Assembly: GCA_037443365.1 (NCBI GenBank)
Contig: JBBIOM010000002.1
Span: 1-64,000 of the forward strand
Origin: Armatimonadota bacterium
GTDB taxonomy: Bacteria; Sysuimicrobiota; Sysuimicrobiia; Sysuimicrobiales; Humicultoraceae
DNA: 64,000 nt
Direction: 5' to 3'
The notes beneath the pieces are model-generated. The model made no database searches. It saw nothing but the letters and a program-made list of their open reading frames with translations, and was not told the origin of the DNA. Position 1 is the first letter of the stretch. Each line of letters begins with the position of its first letter. Shown one piece after another: positions 12,305 through 34,759 of this stretch. A program made the position numbers and the translations under genes.

Positions 12305-13054
<750 letters not shown>

Positions 13055-13058
<4 letters not shown>

Positions 13059-14107: not shown

Positions 14108-14385
14108 GGACGGCTCTCCTGCGACCGGCGCGCCTTCCGGGGGCGCCGCACCGTTATCGCCATCTCGGGACAGACCAGGGCGCACACGGCACACGATGTG
14201 CACCGGGCCTGGTCCGTCACGCGGACGACGGCATACCCGAGGCGATTGAGCGAGCCGAGCTCCATGATCTCGATCGGACAGACGGCCACGCAGAGCGAGC
14301 AGCCCTTGCACCGGTCAGCGGCGACAATGATCCTCTGCGGCGTGACGGTCTCGGTGGGAGCGTCACCTTCCCCAGGCGCGGTCAC
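14104..14385 (-). CDS. 2x[4Fe-4S] ferredoxin (OFOR delta subunit)
   Basis: [12 protein letters not shown] and [12 protein letters not shown]. Confidence 0.92.
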
Positions 14386-17552: not shown

Positions 17553-17556
17553 GGCT

Positions 17557-19238: not shown

Positions 19239-20359
19239 GGCTTGGACTCCCCTCTGATCGCCGCGAGCTCCTCTGTGATGTCAATACCCACAGGACACCA
19301 TGTGATACACCGACCGCACCCGACACATCCCAGGACGCCAAACTGGTCAATCCAGGCGGCCAGCTTGTGGGTGAGCCACTGGCGGTAGCGAGCCCTTACA
19401 TTGGGGCGGAGGTGTCCGCCAAAGACGTACGAGAACTCGTGGTTGAAACAGGAATCCCATACCCTGACGCGGGATGTCTCCCTGCCTGTGAGGTCGCTTG
19501 AGTCCTCTATGTCCGAGCAGAAACAAGTCGGGCATACCATCGTGCAGTTCGAACACGAAAGGCAGCGGTGTGCCACCTCGGACCACCGTTGGTGCTCGAG
19601 ATTCTCGTACATTACGTCTGGCAAACCGTGGGTGTCCATGCTGCGGCCCATGCGCCCCTCGGCATCGGCCAGCGCTCGCCGTGCCTGGCTGAGCTCAAAT
19701 GCCCCGGCAGGGCGCCACTCCACGTTCGCCAGCACGTGGGCTCCCAGCTCGGAACCGATCTCCAGCAAGAAGGCTGTCTCCATCTCGGTCATGACGATGT
19801 CGTAGCCGCTGGCGCAGCGGGGGCCGGTCTTCACCGAGAAGCAGAAGCACACCCCCCCTGGCTCGACGCAGTTGACCGCGAGGACAAAGGCGGCCTGCCT
19901 CCGGTCTCTATAGAACGAGTCCTGCGGCTTGCCCTCGAGGAACACGCGGTCCTGGACCCCGATGGCGGCGAGGTCGCACGCCCGCACACCGATCAGGGCA
20001 TACTGCGGAGGTGTACCGTCCCCGGGCGCGATCTCGATCTCCCCGTTGACCCTGCGGGCTGAGAACAGCTTAGTGACCGCCGGGTAGAGGAACTTCTTCC
20101 AGGAGTGTGGGCCAGAGGCGAAACCGAAGTACATCTCGTCGGGCCGGCGTCGGAGCCGGTATGAGCCCGGCTCCTGGGAGTCGGCCCATCCAATGGGAAG
20201 CTCGGAGATGCTGGAGATCTCTCCATGCACTATGGCGCCCGCATCCACGGTTGGGCCAACAATCGTATAGCCGGCCTCCTTCAGGGCATCAAAGACCTGT
20301 TGGAGGGCTGGCTTGGGTATGATGACGTGCCCGCCAATCGAAGGTGTCTGTACCGGCAT
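19235..20359 (-). CDS. Group 3b hydrogenase beta subunit (4Fe-4S)
   Basis: CLSCSNCTMVCPTCFC, WDSC, YRQWLTHK, CVGCGRCITWCP. Confidence 0.93.
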   Translation of the reverse strand: MPVQTPSIGGHVIIPKPALQQVFDALKEAGYTIVGPTVDAGAIVHGEISSISELPIGWADSQEPGSYRLRRRPDEMYFGFASGPHSWKKFLYPAVTKLFSARRVNGEIEIAPGDGTPPQYALIGVRACDLAAIGVQDRVFLEGKPQDSFYRDRRQAAFVLAVNCVEPGGVCFCFSVKTGPRCASGYDIVMTEMETAFLLEIGSELGAHVLANVEWRPAGAFELSQARRALADAEGRMGRSMDTHGLPDVMYENLEHQRWSEVAHRCLSCSNCTMVCPTCFCSDIEDSSDLTGRETSRVRVWDSCFNHEFSYVFGGHLRPNVRARYRQWLTHKLAAWIDQFGVLGCVGCGRCITWCPVGIDITEELAAIRGESKP

Positions 20360-20884: not shown

Positions 20885-21424
20885 CTAGATGCGCTCTGCC
20901 TTCCTGTAGACCACGACGTCGCCCTCGATCTGGAGATCGTCAGGGTGGTACCTGGGGATGGGAAGGTCAAGCTGCTTGAACCTGACCGGGGCGACCTTCT
21001 TATCGACGAGCCCGAGCGCTGCCGCCACGCCGTAGACAATCGCCTCCGGGCGCGGTGGGCACCCAGGGATGTAGAAGTCGACCGGAACAACCTTCTCAAC
21101 GGCACCAATCACTCCGTAGGTATCGTGCCAGATCCCTCCCCCACACGCGCAGGATCCGACAGCAAAGACGAGCTTGGGCGCGGGCATAGCATCGTAGGCC
21201 CGCCGGAGTGCCCTTGCCGTCGCCCGTGACGCCGGCCCCTGGCATAGCATGACGTCCGCATGCCGGGGTGACCCGACAAGTTTGATCCCAAAGCGCTCCA
21301 CGTCATAGTAGGGTGTCAGCACGTTCAGGACCTCTATATCACAGCCGTTGCAGCCACCGCTGTTGGCGTGGTAGACCCAGATTGACCGCTTGAACGCTCG
21401 CCGGCAGATCTCACCGATGTTCAT
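20885..21424 (-). CDS. Group 4 hydrogenase small subunit (HycG/NuoB-like)
   Basis: GGCNGCDIE, SPRHAD, GSCA, IPGCPPRP. Confidence 0.93.
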   Translation of the reverse strand: MNIGEICRRAFKRSIWVYHANSGGCNGCDIEVLNVLTPYYDVERFGIKLVGSPRHADVMLCQGPASRATARALRRAYDAMPAPKLVFAVGSCACGGGIWHDTYGVIGAVEKVVPVDFYIPGCPPRPEAIVYGVAAALGLVDKKVAPVRFKQLDLPIPRYHPDDLQIEGDVVVYRKAERI

Positions 21425-21443
21425 CTGAGGCTCACCCGTCGCG

Positions 21444-21968
21444 TTAGTCTAGCTCTATCTCGATATCGCGGACCGCAGAGCCGCCGTCTAGGAACGGCCT
21501 TGAGGCGCACACCCACCGGTCGTTCTCGAGATCATCCAGCCGATAGCCCCTCAGCTTCAGCTGCTCCAGCACAGAGGGCTCCTTGAAGCACCTCCCGCAG
21601 CGCGTGCACGTTCCCATGAAGATCTCAAGGTGCTGCTCCAGGTCGCGGATGTCGTCGGTCGCGGTCTCAAACTCCCTGCTCATCGTGATCGCGCCCTCGG
21701 GGCAGACGTCGGCGCACCGGCCGCAGTAGGTGCACCGCAGCCCAAGGTACTTGATGATCCGCACCTCCTGGCTGGGGTCGAAGACGAGGATCTCGCGCGC
21801 AGGGCAGTTGTTGGCGCACCCGGCACACCCGATGCACTTCGCCCCGTCGAAGATGGGCCGCCCTCTGAACCGCTCCGGCGTCGGCCTTGGCTCGAACGGG
21901 TAAGAGAGCGTTGCCCTGCCCGCCTTGAGGCAGATGACCGCCTCCCTGATCTTGCTCAGTACCGACAT
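21444..21968 (-). CDS. HycF/NuoI-like ferredoxin subunit
   Basis: YPF...FRGRP, CIGCAGCANNCP, CTYCGRCADVCP, CTRCG. Confidence 0.92.
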   Translation of the reverse strand: MSVLSKIREAVICLKAGRATLSYPFEPRPTPERFRGRPIFDGAKCIGCAGCANNCPAREILVFDPSQEVRIIKYLGLRCTYCGRCADVCPEGAITMSREFETATDDIRDLEQHLEIFMGTCTRCGRCFKEPSVLEQLKLRGYRLDDLENDRWVCASRPFLDGGSAVRDIEIELD

Positions 21969-21980
21969 CCCATCCCCTCC

Positions 21981-22895
21981 CTAGCCCCGAAGGACGGCGA
22001 CGACGAGCGCCACAACCGCGACAGCCAGCAGCATGGCATAGTGACGGATCGCCTGATCGATCCTGTAGCGAGCGTGCGTGGCGGCGACAACGGTCACGAG
22101 CAACACCAACACGAGAACCTTGACCAGCACCGCAAAGGTGCCCAGAGGGAACGGCCAGGTGCTACCCCAGGGCACGAAGAGCGCACAGAAGAGCGCCCCG
22201 TACACGAGCAGTTTCGCCATCCTGGCGTACTTGAACAGGGCCAGCTTAGGCCCTGAGTATTCCATCACGGCGCCTTCCATGATCTCCGTCTCCGCCTCTG
22301 TGGAATCGTAGGGCAACCGACCCACAAACGCTTGGAATGCGAGCAGGATTACCCCGAGCATGATCAAGCCGGGGATCGGGAGTCCCTCTCCGGCGTAGGC
22401 GGAGCCGCCAAGTACCACGTCGAGCCGTAGTGTGCCCGTCTGGACCGCCCCGAGCATCAGCGCAACGGCCAGGAGCGGCTCCAGGGTGATCATCGACATC
22501 ATCTCCCGGCTCATCCCCAGCAGCGAGTAGGTTGATCCGGCGGCCAGACCCGCCAGCAACACGGAGATGCCGGAGAGCCCAAGGAGGTAGACCAGCACGA
22601 GCGCGTCGCTCACCGCCCCGAGAGGAGGTCGAGTGCCCATAGGGATCATCGTTGCGACGGTCAGCACAGAGGCCAACGACAGCCCGGCGGCCAGCCGCTG
22701 CATTCCCGGGATGACGCCCGACTCGATGTCCTCTTTGCCGAAGAGCTTCAGAATGTCCAGGTACGGCTGGATCAAGGGCGGGCCCTGTCGGGACTGGATA
22801 CGCGCGGTGAGCCGCCTCACGATGCCCTCGAAGAGCGGAGCCGCAAGGAGCACCAGCACAACGTTGAAGGCGGCGATCGCGATTGCCGTGATCAT
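21981..22895 (-). CDS. HycD/NuoH-like membrane subunit
   Basis: ARIQSRQGPP..QPY.D, PYD..EAETEIMEG..EYSG. Confidence 0.93.
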   Translation of the reverse strand: MITAIAIAAFNVVLVLLAAPLFEGIVRRLTARIQSRQGPPLIQPYLDILKLFGKEDIESGVIPGMQRLAAGLSLASVLTVATMIPMGTRPPLGAVSDALVLVYLLGLSGISVLLAGLAAGSTYSLLGMSREMMSMITLEPLLAVALMLGAVQTGTLRLDVVLGGSAYAGEGLPIPGLIMLGVILLAFQAFVGRLPYDSTEAETEIMEGAVMEYSGPKLALFKYARMAKLLVYGALFCALFVPWGSTWPFPLGTFAVLVKVLVLVLLVTVVAATHARYRIDQAIRHYAMLLAVAVVALVVAVLRG

Positions 22896-24568
22896 TGCCG
22901 CACGCTCCTTGCAAGGCGTAGCAGCTCGTCCTGTCCGTACACCCTAACTTGCTCCGTGCGCACGTCCACGACCTCAAGGCGGTCCGTGCACGAGAAACAC
23001 GGGTCTATGCTGCCCAGGGAGATCGCCATGTCGGCAAGCCGCTGCTCCTTGATCATCTCGGGTATGCCCTGCAGGTTCTGGTAGGTCGGGGCCCGTACTC
23101 GCCATCTCCGGGGGCGGTTCTCCTCGCCCGTGACGACGAAGTGGTGTGCCTCACCCCGCGGCGCCTCCACGGAAGAAACCCCGATCCTGCCCGCGGGTGG
23201 CTCGCTGTCGACTACCGCCGCGATCGGCCCGTCGGGCATCTTCTCAAGGCACTGCCTGATGATCCTGATGGACTCGAAGACCTCGAGGACTCGCACCACG
23301 AGGCGGGACCAGACGTCGGCGCCCTCCTGGGTCACCACGTCGAACTCCACCCTATCATAGGCGGCGTAGGGATGGTCGCGCCTGCAATCTATGGCAACTC
23401 CCGCCGCCCTGGCGATCGGTCCTACCAGAGCCATCTCCTTGACAAGGGCCCGGTCGGCTATCCCGACACCCTTGGTCCGGCGCTGGATATTGCGGTCCCC
23501 GCGCACAGCACTGGCAACCGCCAGCCACTCCTTCTCAAGAGTGTCCAGCACATCGCGGATCTCCGACTTGAGTTCCGGGGTGATCTCCCATCGGACACCA
23601 CCGATCACGCAGAGCGCGTAGGTCTTGCGGTTGCCGCTGATCTTCTCGGTGACCCACATAATCGGCTCACGCATCCTGAAGCTCTGCATGAAGAGAGTGT
23701 CGAATCCCAGGATGTGGCTGGCCAGTCCCACCCAGAGCAGGTGGCTGTGCAGCCGCTCGAGTTCCAGCATCACTGTCCGGATGAACTCGGCCCGGGCAGG
23801 CGGCTTGATGGCCGCGGCCTGTTCCACCGCCTGCGCGTAGGTGACGTTGTGCACGGACCCGCAGATGCCGCAGATGCGTTCGGCCAGCATGGGTATCTCG
23901 TTGTACGAGAGCACCGATTCCGAGAGCTTCTCGATGCCGCGGTGAACCATGAAGCCGCGATACTCGCACCCCTTGACCGTTTCACCGTCAACGTAGAGCC
24001 GGAAGTGCGCGGGCTCGTCGAGCGTCGGGTGGAATGGGCCGAAGGGAACCACGATGCAGCCCTCAGGAGGGTCGCGGAATACGTACTGCCGACTGTCGTC
24101 ATAGCCGGGGGGTACGTAGTTCCACGGAACATCCTTCCTCAACGGATGCTCGCCCTCTGGCCACCCATCGGGCAGTACAAGGCGCCCAGGCTCGGTGTGC
24201 CCCACAGGCTCGATCCCCAGGAGATCCTTGAACTCGCGCTCCGCCCAGTTGGCAGCAGGCACACCATCCACGATGCTATCGACGGACGCGTGGTTCCCGC
24301 GAAGGTATGCCAGGATGCACGCAAGCACGCGGTCTCTATCGAACGCGAAGGTGTGGGCGACTAGGTAGCGCCCACTGTAGGGCCGGTCGTCCATCCCGAT
24401 GCTGGTCACGTACCTCGCATCGAGATCCCGGAAGATGTAACGGCAGGCATCCTTGATGGCAGCCGGCATCACGTAAGCGAACAGCCGGTCATCCTGGGGG
24501 ATGTCCGCGCGCTGGATCCTTGCCTCGAAGCGCGCCTTTAGCTGGCTCAGAATTTCGCTCGCTGTCAT
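22892..24568 (-). CDS. Group 4 [NiFe] hydrogenase large subunit (HycE-like, NuoC-NuoD fused)
   Basis: L1 ERICGICG, L2 DPCFSCTDR with C-terminal extension, EAPRGE; all four Ni-binding Cys present. Confidence 0.94.
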   Translation of the reverse strand: MTASEILSQLKARFEARIQRADIPQDDRLFAYVMPAAIKDACRYIFRDLDARYVTSIGMDDRPYSGRYLVAHTFAFDRDRVLACILAYLRGNHASVDSIVDGVPAANWAEREFKDLLGIEPVGHTEPGRLVLPDGWPEGEHPLRKDVPWNYVPPGYDDSRQYVFRDPPEGCIVVPFGPFHPTLDEPAHFRLYVDGETVKGCEYRGFMVHRGIEKLSESVLSYNEIPMLAERICGICGSVHNVTYAQAVEQAAAIKPPARAEFIRTVMLELERLHSHLLWVGLASHILGFDTLFMQSFRMREPIMWVTEKISGNRKTYALCVIGGVRWEITPELKSEIRDVLDTLEKEWLAVASAVRGDRNIQRRTKGVGIADRALVKEMALVGPIARAAGVAIDCRRDHPYAAYDRVEFDVVTQEGADVWSRLVVRVLEVFESIRIIRQCLEKMPDGPIAAVVDSEPPAGRIGVSSVEAPRGEAHHFVVTGEENRPRRWRVRAPTYQNLQGIPEMIKEQRLADMAISLGSIDPCFSCTDRLEVVDVRTEQVRVYGQDELLRLARSVRQ

Positions 24569-24597
24569 CTCACTCCGACCTCGTCATGATTGGACCT

Positions 24598-26553
24598 CTA
24601 CGAGACATCCCGGCCCGGCGGGACCTCTCCGGGCCAAGCGCCGGGCGCTGTGACGTGCTCGCGCGAAGCCCCCCCCAGCCACCGGAACCTGTGCTTGATC
24701 TCTCCGTAGAGGTTGTGTGCAACATAGCGGTGCGCCTCGGACTCCTGCGCGTAGCCGCACAGCCAAACCTCGGCGGTCCGCCGCGGCGCCGCTCCGAGCC
24801 GGGAGAGCCCCGCCGCGGCCAGCAGAAGCCCAGCCATGACCGCGGCAAGCACCAACGGCGCTAGGATCGCTTGACCGCCCAGGACCTGCAGGCCGGACCA
24901 CGGCAGCACCTCACCAAGCGGCTGCGTCATGGGACTCGCGAACATTGCACCCAGCCCAGAACCGCTCCCGGCGAGCGCGGCTCCAAACACCCCGTATGCC
25001 ACGACAGGAGCAACGCCGAAGAACACGCACAGGCCGGCAAGTGCCAGTTGCGGGGCCTGCATCGGCCAGTCGACCTCCATGGGGCCCCGGGCCGCGCGCC
25101 TTGCCACCAAGTCACTGGTGCGCGACAGAAAGGTCGCGCCGAAGAACTTCATAAACGAGGCAAGGGTCAGGACGCTGGTCAGGATCGCCACGACGCCGTA
25201 GACGGCTAGGTAGCCGGCCCATGGGCTACCCATGAAGGCAGCGACGTAGATGGTCCACTTGCTCGCGAAGCCGTTGAACAGGGGCACGCCAGCAATGGAG
25301 AAGGATGCCACAAGGGACGTGACCGCCGTTACCGGCATCGCCTTCATCAATCCCCCGAGCCTGTTCAGATCCTGGGTATCGGTGGCATTCAGCACGGAGC
25401 CGGCGTTGAGGAACAGCAGGCTCTTGAACGTAGCGTGGTTGGCAGTGTGGTACAGCGCCCCGTACAGCGCCAGCGTGGCGAGGGCGGCTGCGCCTGCTCC
25501 CTGATCTGTCTGGCCGACGAGGGCCAGGGCCGCCCCCATTCCAAGCACTATGTACCCCACCTGCCCGATACTGTGAAAAGCAAGCAGGCGCTTGGTCTGC
25601 TCTTGCCTGAGGGCCTGCATCGTGCCAACGAACAGCGTAACCGCACCGAGGGTGGCCAGCACGCCTCCCCAGACCGCGGCTGGGAAGAGCGCGATCGCCT
25701 CTGCCGGCACAAGCCAGAAAAAGGACCGCATCAGGCCGTAGACGCCGGTCTTGATCATGACGCCCGACAGCAGGGCACTGACTGGGGACGGAGCGGCAGG
25801 ATGGGCATCGGGCAGCCACATCTGACCGAATGGCCAGACTCCCGACTTGATGCCGAAGCCGATCAGCATCAGAACAAGCGCGGCGGCCACCGCACCCGCG
25901 TCGGCCTGGAGCAAGCCGGGCATCGCTGCGCCGAGCGCATCGAAGTCATACTTCGCGAGCCCGCCGTCAGGCGCGGTCTCGCCGCGGCCCAATATCGCGG
26001 CACCCATCATCACGAGCACGCAGGCGATCTGCATCATGAAGAGGTAGCGGTTGGCCGCGGCGACGTTCTCGCGCTTCCGGTTCTCGTAGCGTATCAGCGC
26101 AAACGACGGGAGCGTCATCAGTTGCCAGAAGACGAAGAAGAAGAACATCAGGTCTGTCGTGGTAAGGACTCCGTACATCCCGCCGACGAAGAGCAGAAAG
26201 TGCGGGTAGTAGCGCCCCACGCCGTAATCTTTGTAGTGCTGCATGTATCTCACGGAGTATAGCGCCGCCAGTAGCGCGACTGCCGCCACCAGGACAAGGA
26301 ACACGGCGCTCAGACCATCCACGTGAATCCTCAGGCTGGAGCCAAGCCGCGGCAATGACAGATAGGACTCGGGAAGGTCGTGACCTCCTGTCAACACCCT
26401 GGCGGACGCCAGGAAGATCAGCCCGCTGGAGAGGGCAACCGCCCCGAAGGATGCCCAGCCCGCAGCGACCTTGGACCTGGACGCAAGCAGACTGACCACG
26501 GCGCCGACGGTACATACAGCGATCGCGAGCATTACGGCGAAGGGTGCGGTCAT
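24598..26553 (-). CDS. HycC/HyfB-like antiporter-type membrane subunit
   Basis: WLPDAHPAAPSPVSALLSGVMIK, KRLLAFHS, HATFKSLLFL, NGFASKW. Confidence 0.92.
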   Translation of the reverse strand: MTAPFAVMLAIAVCTVGAVVSLLASRSKVAAGWASFGAVALSSGLIFLASARVLTGGHDLPESYLSLPRLGSSLRIHVDGLSAVFLVLVAAVALLAALYSVRYMQHYKDYGVGRYYPHFLLFVGGMYGVLTTTDLMFFFFVFWQLMTLPSFALIRYENRKRENVAAANRYLFMMQIACVLVMMGAAILGRGETAPDGGLAKYDFDALGAAMPGLLQADAGAVAAALVLMLIGFGIKSGVWPFGQMWLPDAHPAAPSPVSALLSGVMIKTGVYGLMRSFFWLVPAEAIALFPAAVWGGVLATLGAVTLFVGTMQALRQEQTKRLLAFHSIGQVGYIVLGMGAALALVGQTDQGAGAAALATLALYGALYHTANHATFKSLLFLNAGSVLNATDTQDLNRLGGLMKAMPVTAVTSLVASFSIAGVPLFNGFASKWTIYVAAFMGSPWAGYLAVYGVVAILTSVLTLASFMKFFGATFLSRTSDLVARRAARGPMEVDWPMQAPQLALAGLCVFFGVAPVVAYGVFGAALAGSGSGLGAMFASPMTQPLGEVLPWSGLQVLGGQAILAPLVLAAVMAGLLLAAAGLSRLGAAPRRTAEVWLCGYAQESEAHRYVAHNLYGEIKHRFRWLGGASREHVTAPGAWPGEVPPGRDVS

Positions 26554-27062
26554 GACCCTGTACTCCTCGTGTGTTCTTCACGGCCTGTGCGAAGCGTCTC
26601 GCCAATCAGCACCCTGAGGGCGTCCATCGACTCCCTGACCTCTCTTGACAGCCCTCCGGCGCGGCGGAGTCGACCGGGCCTGACCCCCAGGAGCCAGACC
26701 CGGGAGTCGCATTGCGACTCGATGAGGCGCGCGAGCGTGCCCAGCGAGAACTTGTGCGTGGAGAGTTGCGGGTAGGCTGCCACCATCTCCTCCTGCCGGA
26801 GTAGGATCGCTGAGCCCGCAGGAGCGTCCACCTCCACGGCGTCAAGGAACACCACGCTGTCGAACCCCTCCCTTGCGATCTTGCCGACCCACCGCTCGGG
26901 TGCAGTACCGGCGCTTATCACCACCGCCGTCTCGGCTCCGTCGAGGGCTTCCGCCAGTCTCACGCCGAAGCCATCGTCCCCAAGGTCAACGTTACCTACA
27001 CCCACCAGGCAGACCTTCCCCGCCAGGCAGCGGCGCAGATCAGCGCGCAGATCTCCTGTCAA
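26550..27062 (-). CDS. HycI-like hydrogenase maturation protease
   Basis: VGVGN..GDDGFG, GTAPE, DAV, STHK. TTG start overlaps the upstream stop. Confidence 0.88.
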   Translation of the reverse strand: MTGDLRADLRRCLAGKVCLVGVGNVDLGDDGFGVRLAEALDGAETAVVISAGTAPERWVGKIAREGFDSVVFLDAVEVDAPAGSAILLRQEEMVAAYPQLSTHKFSLGTLARLIESQCDSRVWLLGVRPGRLRRAGGLSREVRESMDALRVLIGETLRTGREEHTRSTGS

Positions 27063-27907
27063 ATGACCTCTCCCAGCCTGCGGATCTGCTCGTAGGTGAA
27101 GACCGGTCCGTCGGTGCAGACATATGCCACGCCTATGCAGCAGTGGCCGCACTTGCCGACACCGCACTTCATGTACCGCTCGAGCGTGGAGACTATGTTG
27201 CCGTCAGCATAGCCCATCCCCTGGAGATCCCGGAGGACAAACCGAAACATCACGGGCGGGCCGCAGACGAAGGCTGTCGTGTTCTCGATCGGCATCTGGA
27301 CGTCCGGGCGCTTGAAGAGCGACCCGACGACGCCCACGTGACCCCTCCACTGTGAGTCCGCGGAGTCAACGGTCAGCCAGCAGTCAAAGGCAGGGTCCTT
27401 CTGCCACCGCTCGAGATCCTCGACATACATCAGGTCCTTGGGCGTACGCGCGCCGTAGAAGACCTGGATCCTCCCAAACCTCTCCCGGTTGTGAAGGGCG
27501 TAGACTATGCAAGAACGCAGCGGTATCAGCCCGATGCCGCCGGCGACGAACACGAGGTTGCGCCCATAGTAGCTCTCCATCGGAAAGCCGTTGCCGTAGG
27601 GACCGCGCACTCCTACGGCCGCCCCCGGCCGCAACTCGTGCAGCGCCGCGGTCACACTGCCGACCCTGCGAACGGTGAAGAACGTCTCTGCCTCGGTGGG
27701 GCTAGGCGGCAGCGATATCGCTATCTCCCCGGCCCCGAAGACAGAGAGCATGGCGAACTGTCCGGGCATGAACCGCCCAAACGCTTCCTGCTCGGCCGGA
27801 TCCTCGAACCGCCAGTAGAAGGTCTTGACGTCCTCGATCTCGTCCACCACCCGCTCGATGGTGGCGGGCTTTGGCAGGTAGATGTTCTCAGTCTGCTGCG
27901 GGCTCAT
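27059..27907 (-). CDS. AsrB/HydG-like FAD/NAD(P)-binding 2Fe-2S oxidoreductase
   Basis: PGQF, RGPYGNGF, AGGIGLIPLRS, CGPPVM, ERYMKCGVGKCGHC. Confidence 0.92.
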   Translation of the reverse strand: MSPQQTENIYLPKPATIERVVDEIEDVKTFYWRFEDPAEQEAFGRFMPGQFAMLSVFGAGEIAISLPPSPTEAETFFTVRRVGSVTAALHELRPGAAVGVRGPYGNGFPMESYYGRNLVFVAGGIGLIPLRSCIVYALHNRERFGRIQVFYGARTPKDLMYVEDLERWQKDPAFDCWLTVDSADSQWRGHVGVVGSLFKRPDVQMPIENTTAFVCGPPVMFRFVLRDLQGMGYADGNIVSTLERYMKCGVGKCGHCCIGVAYVCTDGPVFTYEQIRRLGEVI

Positions 27908-29004
27908 CGCGTCTCATTCCTCGCTGCCGCCGCTCTCCGGATGATCTCTACTACGCTAGGCATGCCGACGTCACCGTGGCAGACCTCCACGCACCGGCCG
28001 CATCCGACGCATGCCACCGACAGCTCGCGCTGAACGAAGTAGTGCGACAACTTGCGGAAGAATCGCCGGTTCCGCCGGTCGTGAACCGCCTTCCGGGGGT
28101 TGTGTCCTCCGGCCATGCGCGTGAATCCGGTAAGCGCGCACGAGTCCCACAGCCGGATGCGCTCGGTAACCCCATCGGCCGTGCTTCGGTCTGTGACGGT
28201 GAAGCAAGTGCATGTGGGGCAGACATAGCTGCACCCGCCACACTCGAGGCACCGGTTGCCGATCTCCTCCCATGTCTTCTCGCCCACCTCGCCGAGGCTG
28301 ATCAGACGAGAGGCCATCGAGTACCAGCTTGTCACATCCTTAAAGCGCTTGCGGACCTCTGAGAGGATCTCCCTCCGCCTGGCCACGTGTGCCGGCGTGG
28401 CCTGCCTGCATGCCGGGTGCGAGAGCACCGCCTCTCCCGCAGGCGAGCCCGCCACGATCATGTACTCCCCGCCGAGGTGCATGAGCTGGAGATCGAACAG
28501 CTCACGGGCGGCAGGGCCGGTGTCGGCGCAAACGCAGAAGCAGTCGTCGTCAATGTCGAGCTCGGTGTCGGTGCAGACGACGTTCACGAAAAAGAGATTC
28601 CTGCGAAGCCTCTCGTAGTAGGTGTCCCGGTACTCCCTACCCAAGAAGAAGCGGTCGAGGTGGCCGATGGCGGCGAGGTCACAGGAGCGGATCCCAAAGA
28701 TCGCCAGCCTCGGTTCATCCTCCGGCACATCTATCCGCAGCTGTCCCCCACCGGTCCTCCTGGTCGTCAGGATGGTCCGCCTCGCCGTGAGCAGCCGGTG
28801 GATTTGCGGCAGGACGTACCGCTTGGGCGGGTAGTAGGGGTTCGGCAGGTGAAGCTGCACGCTGTCGCGATTCGCGTCGGTGACGACATCGAAGACTGTG
28901 TCGCGACCCCTCCCGAAGAACGGGGCTACGACCTGATATCTGTCCCTCCGGAGGAAGTCCACGATCTTCAACACGTCCGCTCTGTCTATGACTCTGGCCC
29001 GCAT
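27904..29004 (-). CDS. AsrA/HydB-like 4Fe-4S protein
   Basis: GIRSCD, CFC, CLECGGCSYVCPTCTC, WDSC, CVGCGRCVEVC. Confidence 0.92.
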   Translation of the reverse strand: MRARVIDRADVLKIVDFLRRDRYQVVAPFFGRGRDTVFDVVTDANRDSVQLHLPNPYYPPKRYVLPQIHRLLTARRTILTTRRTGGGQLRIDVPEDEPRLAIFGIRSCDLAAIGHLDRFFLGREYRDTYYERLRRNLFFVNVVCTDTELDIDDDCFCVCADTGPAARELFDLQLMHLGGEYMIVAGSPAGEAVLSHPACRQATPAHVARRREILSEVRKRFKDVTSWYSMASRLISLGEVGEKTWEEIGNRCLECGGCSYVCPTCTCFTVTDRSTADGVTERIRLWDSCALTGFTRMAGGHNPRKAVHDRRNRRFFRKLSHYFVQRELSVACVGCGRCVEVCHGDVGMPSVVEIIRRAAAARNETR

Positions 29005-29006
29005 CG

Positions 29007-31043
29007 CTACACCCTCTCAACCCTGGCGCAGATCGGCCAGTCCGAGCTGCCCCCACTGCTATCCGGCTCTCCGAAGAGCTGGCCGATAACCTCGTGCAGG
29101 AAGAAGGGGATGAATATGGTCCCGCGTTTGACGCTGCCGGTTACGCGGGCCGTGCTCACGGCCGACCCGTTCAATGTGGTGATCCTAACCTTCCCCGAAT
29201 CACGAACCCCGAGCTCACGCGCATCCTCAGGATTGATGTCCACGAAGCCCTCCGGGTAGTCGAGTTGGAGGACCCTGTGCTCACGCTTGAGCGTCTCGCT
29301 GTGCTGGACCAGGACGTTGTGGTGCCAGTAGTAGAGCGACCTGCCCACTATCAGAGCGAACGGGTACTCGGCAATCATGCACGATCCGGCCATCTCAGGC
29401 ATTGGGAAGGGCGCCAATCTGAACGGCTCCGAGGGCGCCTCGTCCGCGAACAGCAGCGCCGTTCCGAGAGGCCTGTCTGCCGTGCAAGGCCACTGCCGCC
29501 CGTACTCGCGCGAGAGATTATCGTAGCTGGCCCCCTCGTAGAACGGCACCGCCCGCCTTATCTCGTCCATCACTTGCGAGGACGAGGTGTAGGACCAGCG
29601 TGCGCCGAGCCTGTTCGCTACGCGCACGATCTGATCCCAGGCAGGTAACGGGCCTGGGGGAGGGTCTATGACCTTCTCGGCAAGCTGTATTCGCCGCTCG
29701 GTGCTCGTGAAGGTGGCCCTCTCCTCTCCGAAGGCCACGACCGGCAGGATCACGTCGGCGCGTTGCGCCGTCTCGGTCATGAACAGGTGCTGAACGACCA
29801 TGAAGTCCAACCTGTCGAGGGCCGCGACGATCGAGGCACGCGCGTAGGCGGTGGCGGGGTCGTGGCGGTCGATCCACAGTGCCCGGATCGAGCCGTCGAA
29901 TGCTGCCTCAATCATGCCTCGAGTGGTCAGGCCGGGCCTGGTGGAAATCGGTGCACCCCAGAGAGACTCGAAGTGCCTGCGCGCCGCCTCGTCGTTCACC
30001 GAGGCGTAGCCAGGCAGGAGTTGGGGCTGTACTCCAACGTCGCAGGTCCCCTGGAGGTTGTTATGCTCGGCCAGGGGCATGACTCCCGTGCCCTTCCTAC
30101 CGACGTTACCGGTCAGCAGCGCCAGGTCCACCATGCTCCTGATGGTATCGGCCCCGCGCGCCTCCGCGCCGGTGGCGTACATGATCATGCCGCGCTGCCC
30201 GGAAGCGAAGGCGATGGCCGCGCTCTCCAGAAGACCGGGGGGGATGTCGCAGGCATCCGCCACCCACAAGGCATCGTAGGCGTGCACGGAGGCAAGGAAC
30301 GCCTCGTAGTTCTGACAGCGGCTCTTGAGGAACTTGAGATCCGCAAGGCCGCGGTCCACGATCACCTTGGCCATGGCGCCGTAGAGCAGCCGGTCGGTCC
30401 CAGGCCTAGTTTGCAGGAAGAAATCGGCATGCTCGGCTATCCTGTGCCGCCTCGGATCGATGACTATGAGCTTCGCCCCGCCCATCTTCGCGCGGATGAC
30501 CCTCCCGCCGATGGTCGGCAACTGCAGGGCCAGGTCCACGCCGTTCACCACTATGACGTCGCTCTGCTCGATGTCGGCGATGGAGTTGGTTGCCGCGGGA
30601 ACTCCCAGCATCTCCATGAGGACCTCGATGCTGGCGGAGCGATAGGCGCCCATCCCGTGATCCACATTGTTCGTGCCGACCACCGCCCGGGCAAGCTTCT
30701 GGAGAAGGAAGCCCTCCTCGTTCGAGCAGCGAGGTGAGTTGATGAACCCGATCGCGTCAGGGCCATGCTCGCTGCGGATGTGCTTGAGGCGGGCGGCGAC
30801 GAAGCTCGTGGCCTCGTCCCAGGACGCCTCCCTGAACCCCCCCCCGTCGCGGATGAGTGGTTGCTTGAGCCGATCCGGCGAGCTGGCGACCTCATGTACG
30901 TTCCAGCCCCGCACGCAGATCCGGCCCTGGTTGGCGGGGTGGGACATGCTCGGGTAGCCCCCCGTGATCCTGAAGCCGTCCTCCTCCAAGTAGATTCCGC
31001 ACCCAACGCCACAGAAGGTACAAGTGGTTAGTATGTGCGCCAT
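29007..31043 (-). CDS. FdhF-like molybdopterin oxidoreductase family protein with non-canonical active site
   Basis: CTFCGVGC...C cluster, GTNNVDH, TNSI, IDPR, TETA, TERRIQ present. The C/U-H motif reads Y-R and PLRG reads PLAE. Confidence 0.9.
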   Translation of the reverse strand: MAHILTTCTFCGVGCGIYLEEDGFRITGGYPSMSHPANQGRICVRGWNVHEVASSPDRLKQPLIRDGGGFREASWDEATSFVAARLKHIRSEHGPDAIGFINSPRCSNEEGFLLQKLARAVVGTNNVDHGMGAYRSASIEVLMEMLGVPAATNSIADIEQSDVIVVNGVDLALQLPTIGGRVIRAKMGGAKLIVIDPRRHRIAEHADFFLQTRPGTDRLLYGAMAKVIVDRGLADLKFLKSRCQNYEAFLASVHAYDALWVADACDIPPGLLESAAIAFASGQRGMIMYATGAEARGADTIRSMVDLALLTGNVGRKGTGVMPLAEHNNLQGTCDVGVQPQLLPGYASVNDEAARRHFESLWGAPISTRPGLTTRGMIEAAFDGSIRALWIDRHDPATAYARASIVAALDRLDFMVVQHLFMTETAQRADVILPVVAFGEERATFTSTERRIQLAEKVIDPPPGPLPAWDQIVRVANRLGARWSYTSSSQVMDEIRRAVPFYEGASYDNLSREYGRQWPCTADRPLGTALLFADEAPSEPFRLAPFPMPEMAGSCMIAEYPFALIVGRSLYYWHHNVLVQHSETLKREHRVLQLDYPEGFVDINPEDARELGVRDSGKVRITTLNGSAVSTARVTGSVKRGTIFIPFFLHEVIGQLFGEPDSSGGSSDWPICARVERV

Positions 31044-31094: not shown

Positions 31095-31763
31095 TCATCC
31101 CGCCTTTCCAAGCGCCTCTCGTCCCGTCTCAATCCATGAAATCCACGCGTCGATCCCCTCTCCCGTCCGCGCCGAGAGGGGGAACAGCGGCGCTTGCGAG
31201 ACCGCCCGCAGCCCCGCGGTGAACGCGTCGACCGAGAATCCCGTGGCCCGCAGGAGGTCGGTCTTGTTCAGCACCACCGCTGAGGCCCTCGCAAATGTGC
31301 TCGGGTACTTCAGCGGCTTATCGTCTCCCTCCGGCACGCTGGCCACGACGGCGCGGAGGTGTTCCCCCAGGTCGTAGGCCGTGGGACAGACGAGGTTGCC
31401 GACGTTCTCAACGAACAGCACCTTGATCTGGTCAAGCGGCAGCCGCAGGAGGGCGGTTCGCACAAGGTTGGCGTCGAGGTGGCAGGCGTCGCCGACCAGC
31501 CGCGTCTCGATCTGCACCGCTGGCACCCCGCACCGCCCGATTCGCTCGGCGTCGCGCGACGTGGCGATGTCACCCTCGATAACGCCCATCGAGACCCGCA
31601 AGTGCAGGGCTGCCGCCGTTGCCTCCAGCAGCGCGGTCTTGCCGCTGCCCGGGGATCCGATGATGTTGATCGCAAGGACTCCCGCCCGATCCAGCGTTGC
31701 GCGCACTTCCTCAGCCAGTGCGTCATTGGCCTTCAGAACCCTCTCGACGATCTCGATTCGCAT
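31095..31763 (-). CDS. hypB: Hydrogenase nickel incorporation GTPase HypB
   Basis: GSPGSGKT, CHLDA, ENVGNLVCP, EGDDKPLKYP, NKTD. Confidence 0.96.
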   Translation of the reverse strand: MRIEIVERVLKANDALAEEVRATLDRAGVLAINIIGSPGSGKTALLEATAAALHLRVSMGVIEGDIATSRDAERIGRCGVPAVQIETRLVGDACHLDANLVRTALLRLPLDQIKVLFVENVGNLVCPTAYDLGEHLRAVVASVPEGDDKPLKYPSTFARASAVVLNKTDLLRATGFSVDAFTAGLRAVSQAPLFPLSARTGEGIDAWISWIETGREALGKAG

Positions 31764-32008
31764 CACGGCTCTCCCTGGACCCACTCGAGCTGCAGCTCGA
31801 ATCCGTCGGCGTGGCGCACCTCGAGCTGGGCAGCGCCGACCACCGGGCCCTGACGCAGGATCTCGAACGCGAAGGCAAGCGCGTCCGGAACCACTCCACT
31901 GTACCGTCCCACGGCAACACCGACGCTTTGAACTGCGCTCAGGCCATTGCGCTCCGCGACCTCTGCCACCTGCCGTAGCAGCGAGTGGGCGATCGATACC
32001 TCGTGCAT
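31763..32008 (-). CDS. hypA: HypA-family nickel chaperone lacking the Zn-finger domain
   Basis: MHEVSIA, G..SGVVPDAL.FAF, terminal G.EL.L strand; 81 aa with no Cys; coupled to hypB. Confidence 0.85.
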   Translation of the reverse strand: MHEVSIAHSLLRQVAEVAERNGLSAVQSVGVAVGRYSGVVPDALAFAFEILRQGPVVGAAQLEVRHADGFELQLEWVQGEP

Positions 32009-32019: not shown

Positions 32020-32817
32020 TCAGAACGTCTGGTTGGCCAGCGCCATCATGCCGCGGGTGTAGCGTTCGAGCATAATGGCCTGATCAGGCCGGAGCCGCGC
32101 GCAGGCCCATCGCCAGTGGAACGCGATCAAATCGCCGGGGGCGGCGTCATCCATCTCGGGATCGGAGTCCAGCGTCCTCTGCACCTGCTCGGGACGCGGG
32201 TCGCCGAACCCCAGACGCCCCTCCCTGATGACTATGGGCCGGTAGGAGACGATGAAGGCGCCGGGCTGGATTGCGGTGATCTCGCCGCAGCTTATCCGGC
32301 ACAGGTCCAGGGCCATATCGCCATGCGGCAGGCCAGTCCGGCGCGAGACATCGAACACATGAAAGGCGTGGTGCGCCCTCGCTCCAGCAGGGGGCTTGCT
32401 CACGAGCAGCTCCATTGCGGAACCACCCAACTGCCCGCGGAATCTCTCATGCAGATGACGCGCGTACAGCGTCCAGTCCACGTGCTCGAGAAGGTCGTTG
32501 CCAATCCAGTACGCCTCGACAACGCCCGGATCGAACGGGTCCTTGATCCCGTTGGAGTCGGCTATAAGACGCAAGTACGGGTAGGCGCCCGCGAACGCCC
32601 GCAGGTGGCGCCGCAGCGACTCGTCACCGGTCCCTTCACGAATGGAAGCGAGCAGCTCGGCGTTCGCATCTCCACCGCAGTAGCCGAGCCGGTTGGGCAT
32701 GTACGCGAATCGCGAAAATAGCAACATCCCTGCCAGGGGAGAGCGGGGTGCGCTGACGCCCGATCCCACGTCAACAAGGAGGCCGGAACGCTGGGATGAA
32801 TCGCCGAGGGTTCTCAT
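32020..32817 (-). CDS. DUF6390-like hydrogenase-associated protein
   Basis: FSRFAYMPNRLGYCG, FAGAYPYL..IA, VEAYWIGN, HHAFHVF, CRI, HWRWAC. Start uncertain (32817 or 32727). Confidence 0.75.
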   Translation of the reverse strand: MRTLGDSSQRSGLLVDVGSGVSAPRSPLAGMLLFSRFAYMPNRLGYCGGDANAELLASIREGTGDESLRRHLRAFAGAYPYLRLIADSNGIKDPFDPGVVEAYWIGNDLLEHVDWTLYARHLHERFRGQLGGSAMELLVSKPPAGARAHHAFHVFDVSRRTGLPHGDMALDLCRISCGEITAIQPGAFIVSYRPIVIREGRLGFGDPRPEQVQRTLDSDPEMDDAAPGDLIAFHWRWACARLRPDQAIMLERYTRGMMALANQTF

Positions 32818-32857
32818 GCGAGTTGCCTCGTCCATATTACAATAAAGGTGCGCACCC

Positions 32858-32889
32858 GTGGGGTATCCGTTCATGAGAGGATTCGCCAC
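32858..32889. promoter_or_regulatory. 32-bp imperfect palindrome (putative operator)
   Basis: GTGGGGTATCCGTTCATGAGAGGATTCGCCAC, centred on TCATGA, 24/32 positions symmetric, next to an AT-rich -10-like tract. Confidence 0.5.
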
Positions 32890-32923
32890 AGACAGATGCC
32901 CTGCGGACCGCCTACCGCGCGCC

Positions 32924-34752: not shown

Positions 34753-34759
34753 CCCTGGC

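What the first reader, a model, noticed from the sequence alone, without database searches (positions are those of the whole stretch)
20885..31043. FHL-like complex with an AsrAB-type NAD(P)H module instead of HycB
Seen: one tightly packed operon reading FdhF-like, AsrA-like, AsrB-like, HycI, HycC, HycE, HycD, HycF, HycG, with a single antiporter subunit and no HycB/HydN adaptor. Known: E. coli FHL-1 is FdhF+HycBCDEFG. AsrAB/HydBG pairs are pyridine-nucleotide modules of AsrC or group 3b enzymes. No asrC is present, and the neighbouring 3b enzyme has its own pair. Inference: a membrane-bound, possibly ion-coupled NAD(P)H:H2 enzyme, or a three-way one, built from FHL parts. I do not recognise a characterised example.
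Basis: partly seen in the sequence, partly recalled or inferred. Interest (0 to 1): 0.82.

Follow-up and report, generated by a model that had tools for sequence, protein, structure and literature searches.

The report
NAD(P)H-wired membrane hydrogenase, dead FDH subunit
This is a real nine-gene operon for a membrane-bound nickel-iron hydrogenase that looks like formate hydrogenlyase, but its formate-dehydrogenase-like subunit lacks the catalytic residues and an NAD(P)H-type flavoprotein pair stands where the usual connector protein would be; the type is widespread, has been noted from sequence, and has not been tested biochemically in any paper I found.

Summary
One minus-strand operon (20885-31043) encodes an FDH-fold protein, SHI-beta/AsrA-like, SHI-gamma/AsrB-like, HycI, one HyfB/HycC-like antiporter subunit, HycE, HycD, HycF and HycG. 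There is no HycB and the genome has no AsrC.

The "FdhF-like" protein has Tyr, Arg and Ala where formate dehydrogenases have Sec/Cys, His and Arg. None of 198 family members has Cys/Sec or Arg there, and one has the His. A canonical Sec-type FDH lies in the same window.

The cassette is strongly conserved. Of 80 related loci from about ten phyla, 51 carry all eight partner genes in the same order and 25 more are cut by the locus end.

My best reading is an ion-coupled NAD(P)H:H2 enzyme wired through the beta/gamma pair and HycF. The role of the FDH-like subunit is open: scaffold or third site. A fold test of beta with HycF gave only weak support.

The architecture is already in print from sequence: Takano et al. 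2026, and an "enigmatic" relative in Matheus Carnevali et al. 2019. My searches found no biochemical study. This scan found the same operon type six times before on other DNA. Verdict: a new member of a known, uncharacterised kind, of moderate interest.

The parts
29007..31043 (-). FDH-fold molybdopterin-oxidoreductase-family subunit (678-681 aa). The N-terminal 4Fe-4S Cys motif is kept. Tyr, Arg and Ala stand at the Sec/Cys, His and Arg positions of formate dehydrogenases.
   Evidence: Pfam. NCBIfam (Fdh-alpha 585 bits, below cut-off 666). PDB alignments. Column counts. Fold (cytoplasmic FDHs, TMq about 0.8). The gene caller's protein P0001 is 678 aa; the ORF from TTG reaches 31052.
27904..29004 (-). 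SHI-beta / HydB / AsrA-like poly-FeS subunit (366 aa), proposed connector in the place of HycB.
   Evidence: Pfam Fer4_22. NCBIfam HydB/ShyB/AsrA, all below cut-off. Only PDB hit is P. furiosus sulfhydrogenase I beta 9nez_B, E 1.3e-33. 16 invariant Cys in 29 orthologues. Fold test with HycF: weak support.
27059..27907 (-). SHI-gamma / HydG / AsrB-like FAD/NAD(P)-binding 2Fe-2S flavoprotein (282 aa).
   Evidence: Pfam NAD_binding_1 + DHODB_Fe-S_bind. Best PDB hit 9nez_C, E 1.4e-59. The nucleotide-binding glycine motif, the CGPP motif and four C-terminal Cys are invariant in 30 sequences.
26550..27038 (-). HycI-type hydrogenase maturation protease. The start is uncertain: in-frame GTG at 27005, CTG at 27038, and the listed ORF start 27167 lies inside the gamma gene.
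   Evidence: Pfam HycI. TIGR00072 at 86.5 bits, above cut-off 47. Sequence read.
24598..26553 (-). Single antiporter-like membrane subunit (651 aa), HyfB-like rather than HycC-like.
   Evidence: Pfam Proton_antipo_M/N. NCBIfam hydrogenase 4 subunit B 387 bits against FHL subunit 3 at 149 bits. Best PDB hit MbhH 6cfw_H; the alignment conserves the Lys/His-bearing motifs of the antiporter fold.
22892..24568 (-). HycE-type [NiFe] large subunit (558 aa) with an N-terminal NuoC-like domain, both CxxC nickel-iron motifs and a C-terminal extension after the second motif.
   Evidence: Pfam. Best PDB hit E. coli HycE 7z0s_E, E 3.7e-119, with both motifs visible in the alignment. CxxC in all 67 motif hits, found in 66 of 80 loci.
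21981..22895 (-). HycD / NuoH-like membrane subunit (304 aa).
   Evidence: Pfam NADHdh, E 3.8e-57.
21444..21968 (-). HycF / NuoI-like ferredoxin subunit (174 aa), with two 4Fe-4S motifs and a further conserved C-terminal Cys triplet.
   Evidence: NCBIfam FHL iron-sulfur subunit. Best PDB hit 7z0s_F. Invariant Cys in 30 sequences.
20885..21424 (-). HycG / NuoB-like small subunit (179 aa).
   Evidence: Pfam Oxidored_q6, E 1.7e-31. NCBIfam NuoB family.
31095..32008 (-). HypA (31763-32008) and HypB (31095-31784) nickel-insertion genes directly upstream, 42-51 bases from the operon. They may be co-transcribed; they are not part of the conserved cassette.
   Evidence: HypB TIGR00073 at 241 bits, above cut-off. 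HypA Pfam. HypB sits beside the cassette in only some related loci.

Best explanation
The operon encodes a membrane-bound group 4 [NiFe]-hydrogenase with an FHL-type core: HycE/HycG catalytic pair, HycF, HycD, one HyfB-like antiporter subunit and its own HycI protease. Its peripheral arm is not FdhH+HycB. It is a sulfhydrogenase-type beta/gamma pair plus an FDH-fold protein that is not a canonical formate dehydrogenase.

Proposed path: NAD(P)H binds the gamma-like flavoprotein (FAD, 2Fe-2S). Electrons pass through the 4Fe-4S clusters of the beta-like subunit to HycF, then HycG, then the NiFe site. The reaction NAD(P)H + H+ <-> NAD(P)+ + H2 is coupled to ion movement through HycD and the HyfB-like subunit. 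In effect this is a complex-I-like machine that ends in a hydrogenase site instead of a quinone site.

The direction would depend on H2 pressure and membrane potential. One option is H2 release as a redox valve under anoxia. The other is H2-driven NAD(P)+ reduction.

Shown: gene content, intact cofactor motifs, loss of the formate-dehydrogenase residues, and conservation of the cassette.

Inferred: the wiring, the nucleotide as substrate, the ion coupling and the direction.

The FDH-like subunit is either a NuoG-like FeS-bearing scaffold or a third redox site. I leave that open.
For: 1. All nine genes are present and tightly spaced.

2. The hydrogenase is intact. HycE has both CxxC motifs and a C-terminal extension, and a HycI gene lies in the operon. 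All 67 motif hits in related loci are CxxC.

3. The gamma-like subunit keeps its nucleotide-binding and 2Fe-2S motifs in 30 of 30 sequences. The beta-like subunit keeps 16 invariant Cys in 29 of 29. Their closest solved relatives are the beta and gamma chains of the NADPH-oxidising P. furiosus SHI.

4. The FDH-like subunit cannot be a canonical FDH (198 family sequences):
- Sec/Cys position: Y 177, H 14, F 6, S 1
- His position: 1 H
- Arg position: 0 R
The window has Y, R and A at these positions. The residue roles and the E. coli FdhH numbering (Sec140, His141, Arg333) are recalled. The canonical motifs were seen.

5. Formate has its own enzyme. A canonical Sec-type FDH alpha gene lies at window 62282 onward.

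6. There is no HycB in the operon, and only one Fer4_11 gene in the genome, elsewhere. There is no AsrC.

7. The cassette behaves as a unit. In 71 of 72 loci with room, beta and gamma directly follow the Mo gene. In 51 of 80 loci all eight partners are in order, and 25 more are cut by the locus end. No flanking gene family recurs in more than 6 of 80 loci.

8. Fold test, HycF + beta-like: weak support. The score was 0.56 (runs 0.60, 0.54, 0.56) and the best of 3 controls was 0.00. The runs agree in at least 45% of contacts and the partner pLDDT is at least 80. The mark was reached by 58 of 80 solved complexes and 2 of 110 mismatched pairs. At 0.60 or under it was reached by only 7 of those 80 and by both passing mismatches.

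9. Takano et al. report AlphaFold models in which the FeS chain links the large subunit, SHI-gamma and the Fdh-like protein (section 16). Their supplementary figure was not seen.
Against: - There is no experimental datum of any kind and no expression data.
- The fold test is only a weak pass, of a class that is more often wrong than right unless the guess was likely beforehand.
- The remodelled site of the FDH-like subunit is itself strongly conserved: Glu 198 of 198 beside the lost Arg, Tyr 177 of 198, and Arg 197 of 198 at the Lys position. The whole four-domain fold is kept. That is more than a mere scaffold would seem to need and points to a third function that this reading does not explain.
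- The organism already has a soluble group 3b enzyme, of the type described as linking NADP(H) and H2, next door. The need for a second NAD(P)H-linked hydrogenase rests on the inferred ion coupling.
- Three Verrucomicrobiota loci lack the antiporter-like gene, so pumping through it is not universal.
- NADH versus NADPH was not determined.
Confidence: 0.5

Rival explanations
1. Obligate three-substrate enzyme. The FDH-like subunit keeps a Mo/W-bis-pterin cofactor in a remodelled site (Tyr/Glu) and turns over an unidentified substrate. The complex then confurcates or bifurcates electrons among H+/H2, NAD(P)+/NAD(P)H and that substrate, as Takano et al. proposed.
For: - The former active site is remodelled, not decayed: Glu 198 of 198, Tyr 177 of 198, and Arg 197 of 198 at the electron-relay Lys position.
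- Family members are 54-89% identical to the window's protein over the full length across phyla.
- The full FDH fold is kept.
- The genome makes the cofactor: MoaA and four MoeA genes, and a MoeA-MobB fusion lies in the window.
- Takano et al. model a three-way branched FeS network.
Against: - No known Mo ligand type (Cys, Sec, Ser, Asp; recalled) is conserved at the ligand position.
- The neighbouring residue varies freely: C 91, R 53, S 24, T 10, G 9, A 8, V 2, H 1.
- No conserved flanking gene hints at a substrate.
- Cofactor genes are explained by the three other Mo enzymes of the genome, so their presence does not discriminate.
Confidence: 0.3
2. Two enzymes in one operon. The Hyc core works like Ech with ferredoxin docking on HycF. 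The FDH-like/beta/gamma trio is a separate soluble NAD(P)H-linked oxidoreductase that is only co-regulated.
For: - Ech- and Mbh-type group 4 enzymes take ferredoxin without a HycB-like adaptor (established knowledge, recalled).
- A 2-oxoacid:ferredoxin oxidoreductase lies nearby at 12297-14311.
- The fold test for beta with HycF is only weak.
Against: - The order is strictly colinear, with HycI between gamma and the membrane genes, in 51 of 80 loci plus 25 truncated ones.
- Genes overlap by 4 bases at three junctions.
- No locus among the 80 shows the trio without the core where DNA is available. The exceptions are 3 loci that lack only HycC and 1 that ends after HycE.
- The fold-test controls scored 0.00.
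Confidence: 0.12
3. A true formate hydrogenlyase with a non-canonical formate dehydrogenase; the beta-like subunit merely replaces HycB.
For: - The best family and fold matches of the Mo subunit are formate dehydrogenases.
- The Hyc core is closest to E. coli FHL.
- Pipelines label such clusters FHL or group 4b formate-respiring.
Against: - In 198 family members, none has Sec/Cys or Arg and one has the His at the catalytic positions.
- The Fdh-alpha model score is below its cut-off.
- A canonical Sec-FDH exists elsewhere in the window.
- An NAD(P)-binding flavoprotein would have no role in this scheme.
Confidence: 0.05

Closest known systems
Group 4b [NiFe]/[NiFeSe]-hydrogenase gene clusters with a Cys/Sec-less Fdh plus SHI-beta/SHI-gamma homologues (Takano et al., Front Microbiol 2026, PMC13582414; sections 15, 16 and 20 read; figures and supplements not seen)
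   Same: A group 4 large and small subunit, an Fdh-like protein without the Mo-ligand Cys/Sec, and co-occurring SHI-beta and SHI-gamma homologues. Armatimonadota and Methylomirabilota are among the hosts.
   Different: Their description is a short passage in a paper about selenocysteine variants. The window's HycE is the plain CxxC type. The window has one antiporter-like subunit and no HyfE-like gene, whereas their typical 4b cluster has several. The HydDB subgroup was not tested here.
E. coli formate hydrogenlyase FHL-1 (FdhF + HycBCDEFG, group 4a; PDB 7Z0S/7Z0T)
   Same: HycC/D/E/F/G-type core with a HycI protease. HycE and HycF have their best solved matches in 7z0s. An FDH-fold subunit is present.
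   Different: There is no HycB. The FDH-like subunit lacks the catalytic Sec/Cys, His and Arg. A beta/gamma flavo-FeS pair is added. The antiporter-like subunit is HyfB-like.
Pyrococcus furiosus soluble sulfhydrogenase I (group 3b; PDB 9NEZ/9NF0)
   Same: The beta and gamma subunits are the closest solved relatives of the operon's pair. Gamma is the NADPH site there (Takano citing Xiao et al. 2025).
   Different: SHI is soluble, with group 3 alpha/delta subunits. Here the pair sits with a membrane-bound group 4 core. The window has a separate genuine 3b enzyme.
Respiratory complex I (Nuo/NDH-1)
   Same: The same module logic: a nucleotide-oxidising flavoprotein, an FeS chain, a catalytically degenerate FDH-fold subunit (NuoG; recalled), NuoB/C/D/I/H homologues and an antiporter-like subunit.
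   Different: The flavoprotein is of the FNR/PyrK type, not NuoF. The NuoD homologue keeps its NiFe site. There is one antiporter-like subunit. The FDH-like subunit matches FDHs far better than NuoG (585 against 139 bits).
Anaerobic sulfite reductase AsrABC
   Same: AsrA and AsrB are homologues of the beta and gamma subunits.
   Different: The genome has no AsrC. The AsrA and AsrB models score 128 and 191 bits, against cut-offs of 323 and 289.
'Enigmatic' group 4 hydrogenase region of Saganbacteria RX5A (Matheus Carnevali et al., bioRxiv 10.1101/328856, passages read; Nat Commun 2019 version seen only in a search listing)
   Same: A group 4 hydrogenase with an unclassifiable molybdopterin oxidoreductase plus asrA- and asrB-like genes. 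Its function was stated as undetermined.
   Different: That region also has a cooF-like gene. Whether it is orthologous to this cassette was not tested.

Membership tests
E. coli-type formate hydrogenlyase (FHL, group 4a) | Formate dehydrogenase subunit with catalytic Sec/Cys, His and Arg | tested here: not met
   The window has Tyr, Arg and Ala (alignment). Of 198 family members, none has Cys/Sec, 1 has His and none has Arg. The residue roles are recalled.
E. coli-type formate hydrogenlyase (FHL, group 4a) | HycB-type four-cluster ferredoxin connecting FDH to HycF | tested here: not met
   There is no such ORF in the operon. The only Fer4_11 gene of the genome is at C4:58692-58973.
E. coli-type formate hydrogenlyase (FHL, group 4a) | HycC/D/E/F/G core with NiFe ligands, a C-terminal extension and a HycI protease | tested here: met
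Fdh-like + SHI-beta/gamma group 4b clusters (Takano et al. 2026) | Fdh subunit lacking the Mo-coordinating Cys/Sec | tested here: met
Fdh-like + SHI-beta/gamma group 4b clusters (Takano et al. 2026) | Homologues of SHI-beta and SHI-gamma encoded in the cluster | tested here: met
   9nez_B at E 1.3e-33 and 9nez_C at E 1.4e-59.
Fdh-like + SHI-beta/gamma group 4b clusters (Takano et al. 2026) | Large subunit classified as HydDB group 4b | not testable with these tools
   No HydDB classifier or 4b reference sequence was at hand. The best solved relative is 4a HycE. A paper on related lineages reports HydDB 4b without FdhAB.
Group 3b sulfhydrogenase (SHI type) | Group 3 alpha and delta catalytic subunits together with beta and gamma | tested here: not met
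   The operon's catalytic subunits are HycE/HycG (group 4). The true 3b set is the neighbouring operon, 16254-20359.
Anaerobic sulfite reductase AsrABC | Siroheme subunit AsrC, and AsrA/AsrB above the family cut-offs | tested here: not met
   AsrC: best 30 bits against a cut-off of 324. AsrA 128 against 323 bits and AsrB 191 against 289 bits.
Energy-converting (ion-translocating) group 4 hydrogenases in general | NuoH-like and antiporter-like membrane subunits with conserved charged residues | tested here: inconclusive
   Both subunits are present. Motifs align with MbhH, but individual residues were not mapped and no transport can be shown from sequence.

The most novel reading that the evidence does not exclude
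The FDH-fold subunit is a new kind of molybdo/tungsto-pterin (or cofactor-free) redox site built around an almost invariant Tyr and an invariant Glu. The complex would then be a membrane-bound, ion-translocating, three-way confurcating enzyme that joins NAD(P)H, H2 and an unidentified common metabolite. It would be an evolutionary intermediate between formate hydrogenlyase and complex I that is still at work in many soil and subsurface bacteria.
Probability: 0.25. Interest if true: 0.85.

Novelty: new member of a known kind. Interest (0 to 1): 0.5.

Why it matters
Annotation pipelines and MAG studies read this cassette as formate hydrogenlyase or as a "group 4b formate-respiring" hydrogenase. 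If it links NAD(P)H rather than formate to H2, hydrogen and formate budgets inferred from the genomes that carry it are wrong. Those genomes include Verrucomicrobiota, Acidobacteriota, NC10 and others from peat, soil, groundwater and the subsurface.

Mechanistically it would be a membrane-coupled NAD(P)H:H2 enzyme, an activity I know only from soluble enzymes (group 3b and 3d, recalled). It would also be a living analogue of the step in which a degenerate FDH module became part of complex I.

It has been noted in print and six times in this scan. The value of this window is therefore as one more clean Cys-type example, with a canonical Sec-FDH and a 3b enzyme alongside for contrast.

Tried and rejected
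- Molybdenum cofactor test. I asked whether the genome lacks cofactor synthesis, which would have shown the FDH-like subunit to be cofactor-free. MoaA, four MoeA genes and three other Mo enzymes are present, so the test does not discriminate.
- Second group 4 hydrogenase on contig C5. It was suggested by matches with in-frame stops. It is a nuo (complex I) operon, and the stops are gene borders.
- Expression. No RNA holder is listed; only four DNA runs of one study hold the stretch.
- Gene fusions as evidence of contact. The 'longer' search with the beta-like protein gave two hits. One is a beta-gamma fusion at 33% identity. The other is a 1416-aa protein with no other Pfam domain. Neither bears on beta-HycF or beta-FDH contact.
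- Conserved flanking genes as a clue to a third substrate. None recurs in more than 6 of 80 loci. ORF picking in GC-rich DNA is rough.
- A cultured carrier. The best 80 loci all bear MAG or 'uncultured' record titles. Cluster look-up of 10 family proteins returned no names. Limisphaera isolates are reported to have group 3 and 4 hydrogenases, but I did not verify that they carry this cassette.
- Selenocysteine variants of HycE among the 80 loci: none, 67 of 67 motif hits are CxxC.
- Promoter and terminator scan: no promoter-like site, and 4 terminator-like sites against 5.1 expected. One lies 50 bases after HycG but is not above chance.
- The AlphaFold model of the FDH-like subunit is only moderate (mean pLDDT 72.4). 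It shows the fold, not cofactor binding.
- Literature searches for a biochemical study found only in-silico mentions. Subscription journals and all supplements were out of reach.

Full report
**1. What is there**

The minus strand between 20885 and 31052 carries nine ORFs. Pfam and NCBIfam name them as follows:
- A molybdopterin-oxidoreductase-family protein with an N-terminal Fe4S4 domain. Its best family is formate dehydrogenase alpha, TIGR01591, at 585 bits, below the curated cut-off of 666.
- A Fer4_22 poly-FeS protein. Its best families are sulfhydrogenase HydB/ShyB and AsrA, all far below their cut-offs.
- An FAD/NAD-binding protein with a PyrK-type 2Fe-2S domain. Its best families are HydG/ShyC/AsrB, again below cut-offs.
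- A HycI-type maturation protease.
- One antiporter-like subunit, HyfB at 387 bits against HycC at 149.
- HycE, a fused NuoC-NuoD.
- HycD, HycF and HycG.

Three junctions overlap by four bases (beta/gamma, HycI/HycC, HycE/HycD). The other gaps are 2 to 29 bases, and 525 bases separate HycG from the next gene. HypA and HypB lie directly upstream. The start of HycI is uncertain.

- No HycB-type gene is in the operon. The genome's single Fer4_11 gene lies on contig C4 beside another Mo enzyme.
- No AsrC is found in the 97.7%-complete genome. The best hit is 30 bits against a cut-off of 324.
- The adjacent group 3b hydrogenase (16254-20359, protease at 15758-16267) has its own beta and gamma. They are 31% and 41% identical to the operon's pair.

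**2. The hydrogenase core is intact and FHL-like**

HycE's best solved relative is E. coli HycE (7z0s_E, E 3.7e-119). The alignment shows both CxxC nickel-iron motifs and a C-terminal extension after the second, which fits the HycI gene. HycF matches 7z0s_F. The antiporter-like subunit aligns best with MbhH (6cfw_H), including the conserved Lys/His-bearing motifs.

**3. The FdhF-like protein is not a canonical formate dehydrogenase**

In the alignments to an F420-dependent FDH (9t1s_L) and to HDCR FdhF (7qv7_S), the window's protein differs at three positions:
- Tyr where they have Sec/Cys.
- Arg where they have the adjacent His.
- Ala where they have the active-site Arg.

The roles of these residues and the E. 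coli FdhH numbering (Sec140, His141, Arg333, Lys44) are recalled, not from a call.

I aligned 198 family sequences to a canonical FDH of the same genome. They were the 120 best homologues plus 78 of the 80 loci.

| Position in canonical FDH | Residues found in the 198 family sequences |
|---|---|
| Sec/Cys | Y 177, H 14, F 6, S 1 |
| His | C 91, R 53, S 24, T 10, G 9, A 8, V 2, H 1 |
| Arg | T 156, A 39, C 1, N 1, S 1 |
| Gly after the Arg | E 198 |
| Electron-relay Lys | R 197, gap 1 |

So the site is remodelled and then conserved, not decayed. The N-terminal 4Fe-4S motif is kept in 116 of 120.

An AlphaFold model (mean pLDDT 72.4, pTM 0.73) matches cytoplasmic FDHs over the full length. Examples are ForCE1 8rqz_C, MeFDH1 7vw6_A and FdhH 1fdi, with TM-score on the query about 0.8.

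The same window holds a canonical selenocysteine FDH alpha gene from 62282 onward. It has the usual Sec-His and Arg motifs. Formate oxidation therefore has its own enzyme.

**4. The beta/gamma pair looks functional**

The only solved relative of the beta-like protein is P. furiosus sulfhydrogenase I beta (9nez_B, E 1.3e-33). The gamma-like protein matches SHI gamma (9nez_C, E 1.4e-59).

Across 29 beta and 30 gamma orthologues, mean column identity is 77% and 80%. Sixteen Cys are invariant in beta. In gamma the nucleotide-binding glycine motif, the CGPP motif and four 2Fe-2S Cys are invariant.

**5. Conservation**

The FDH-like protein has 5427 homologues at E <= 1e-30 among 8000 scored candidates. 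The 120 listed are 58-100% identical.

A scan of one genome per species found 203 genomes encoding a relative, and the best 80 loci were kept. Their record titles name Armatimonadota, Methylomirabilota/NC10, Omnitrophota, Lentisphaerota, Verrucomicrobiota (the majority), Terriglobia/Acidobacteriota, Thermodesulfobacteriota, Planctomycetota, Nitrospirota and Anaeromyxobacter. One more is Candidatus Fervidifonticultor quartus.

I searched the window's proteins against these loci with tblastn:
- 51 of 80 loci have all eight partner genes in the window's order and strand.
- 25 more show a correct prefix that stops within 700 bases of the locus end.
- 3 lack only the antiporter-like gene (L049, L050, L055).
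- 1 (L027) ends after HycE with about 4 kb of unmatched DNA.
- Beta and gamma directly follow the Mo gene in 71 of 72 loci with room.
- Nine loci have two antiporter-like genes in tandem.
- No flanking gene family recurs in more than 6 of 80 loci.

Within the window's own lineage the cassette is patchy. The beta-like protein is found at E <= 1e-60 in 3 of 94 genomes sampled, G000 included. Among genomes at least 90% complete it is 3 of 54, with this query.

I built a quick HycE tree of 62 rows: the window, 60 loci and one outgroup. Twenty loci were left out, 14 of them without a HycE motif hit and the rest because the best match was partial, under 60% identical or held a stop. The tree puts the window beside Ca. 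Fervidifonticultor quartus (SH-aLRT 99). The 40 Verrucomicrobiota rows do not form one clade: 7 changes, of which at least 4 are forced by supported branches. That fits transfer of the cassette between phyla, as Takano et al. also say, but it does not prove it.

**6. How it most likely works**

FHL wires FdhH to HycF through HycB. Here HycB is missing, and a multi-cluster beta-like protein with an NAD(P)-binding flavoprotein partner is encoded in its place. The simplest wiring is NAD(P)H, then gamma (FAD, 2Fe-2S), beta (4Fe-4S clusters), HycF, HycG and the NiFe site.

The standard potentials are about -320 mV for NAD(P)H and -414 mV for H2 (recalled). The difference, roughly 18 kJ/mol per electron pair, is about the cost of moving one ion. 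A membrane-coupled enzyme could therefore do one of two things. It could use membrane potential to push H2 evolution or, at very low H2, gain energy from it. Or it could conserve energy while reducing NAD(P)+ with H2. All of this is inference.

A fold test of HycF with the beta-like subunit, using my own alignments A3 and A2, gave weak support:
- Score 0.56 (runs 0.60, 0.54, 0.56); best of 3 controls 0.00.
- The runs agree in at least 45% of contacts, and the partner pLDDT is at least 80.
- The mark was reached by 58 of 80 solved complexes and 2 of 110 mismatched pairs.
- At 0.60 or under it was reached by only 7 of those 80 and by both passing mismatches.

The prior from operon structure was high, so I take this as a modest gain only.

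The role of the FDH-like subunit remains open. Loss of the ligand and catalytic residues recalls NuoG of complex I. The strict conservation of the new residues argues for a function. The presence of cofactor-synthesis genes does not discriminate, because the genome has three other Mo enzymes.

**7. What is known**

- Takano et al. (Front Microbiol 2026, PMC13582414; sections 15, 16 and 20 read) state that about half of the Fdh sequences in group 4b clusters lack the Cys/Sec. They state that those clusters carry SHI-gamma and SHI-beta homologues. Their AlphaFold models show an FeS network branching to the large subunit, SHI-gamma and the Fdh-like protein. They suggest bifurcation or confurcation with an unidentified substrate. 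I could not see their figures or supplements.
- Matheus Carnevali et al. (bioRxiv 10.1101/328856, passages read; the Nat Commun version only in the listing) describe an "enigmatic" group 4 hydrogenase region with an unclassifiable molybdopterin oxidoreductase, cooF, asrA and asrB, of undetermined function.
- A paper on Fervidibacteria reports a HydDB "group 4b formate-respiring" hydrogenase in MAGs that lack FdhAB (passage).
- The paper describing Sysuimicrobiota lists hydrogenase groups 1f, 1g and 3b-3d and does not contain the words "group 4".
- Six library searches found no biochemical study. The library lacks most subscription journals.
- This scan has reported the same operon type six times on other DNA. 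Those notes reach the same reading, and one of them led me to the Takano paper. I had formed my reading before seeing them and checked the paper myself.

**8. Verdict**

A formate-using three-way enzyme is unlikely.

The architecture is already described from sequence but not characterised. This window is therefore a new member of a known, unexplained kind. It has useful internal contrasts: a canonical Sec-FDH and a complete group 3b enzyme in the same 64 kb.

Noticed in passing
window 62282-64000, continuing to about C2:65200 (L098): A canonical selenocysteine-containing formate dehydrogenase alpha gene on the minus strand. It has one in-frame TGA at the expected Sec position, the usual Sec-His and Arg motifs, and N-terminal NuoG-like FeS domains. 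It contrasts with the degenerate FDH-like gene of the operon.
   Followed up: partly
window 15758-20359: A complete group 3b (sulfhydrogenase-type) operon on the same strand, 525 bases downstream of HycG: beta, gamma, delta, alpha and its own maturation protease. In Ca. Fervidifonticultor quartus (L009) the 3b genes lie upstream of the cassette instead.
   Followed up: partly
window 45079-60374: A redox island with these genes: a CCG/FeS HdrD-like gene, ETF beta and alpha, a membrane CCG/FeS protein, an HdrA-like flavoprotein, a hydrogenase small subunit (52703-53710), an HdrB-like CCG protein and a NiFe large subunit (58833-60374). It may be an Mvh/Hdr-type group 3c system. A histidine kinase and a hybrid response-regulator kinase (53431-56904) interrupt it.
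   Followed up: no
window 41021-43111: A 696-aa fusion of MoeA (all domains) with MobB, on the minus strand next to an ADP-forming acetyl-CoA synthetase.
   Followed up: no
window 32020-36283: A DUF6390 gene and a peptide/nickel-type ABC transporter (SBP_bac_5 plus two permeases) lie directly upstream of hypA/hypB. This may be nickel supply for the hydrogenases.
   Followed up: no
L049, L050, L055; and L031, L040, L052, L058, L059, L071, L072, L077, L079: The membrane arm of the cassette varies. Three Verrucomicrobiota loci have no antiporter-like gene between HycI and HycE, and nine loci have two in tandem.
   Followed up: partly
L014:1-9500: In an NC10 chromosome a second, different group 4 hydrogenase cluster lies directly upstream of the cassette. 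Its large subunit is 44% identical and it has several antiporter-like genes.
   Followed up: no
G000:C5:87000-99000 (L097): A nuo (complex I) operon with a fused NuoCD. The 'stops inside' flagged for it are borders between neighbouring genes, not selenocysteine codons.
   Followed up: yes
L008 and L009 record titles: The closest relative (89% identical FDH-like protein) is titled Armatimonadota, while the next (69%) is Ca. Fervidifonticultor quartus, which the tree tool labels Candidatus Sysuimicrobiota. The phylum label of the window's lineage seems to differ between records.
   Followed up: no
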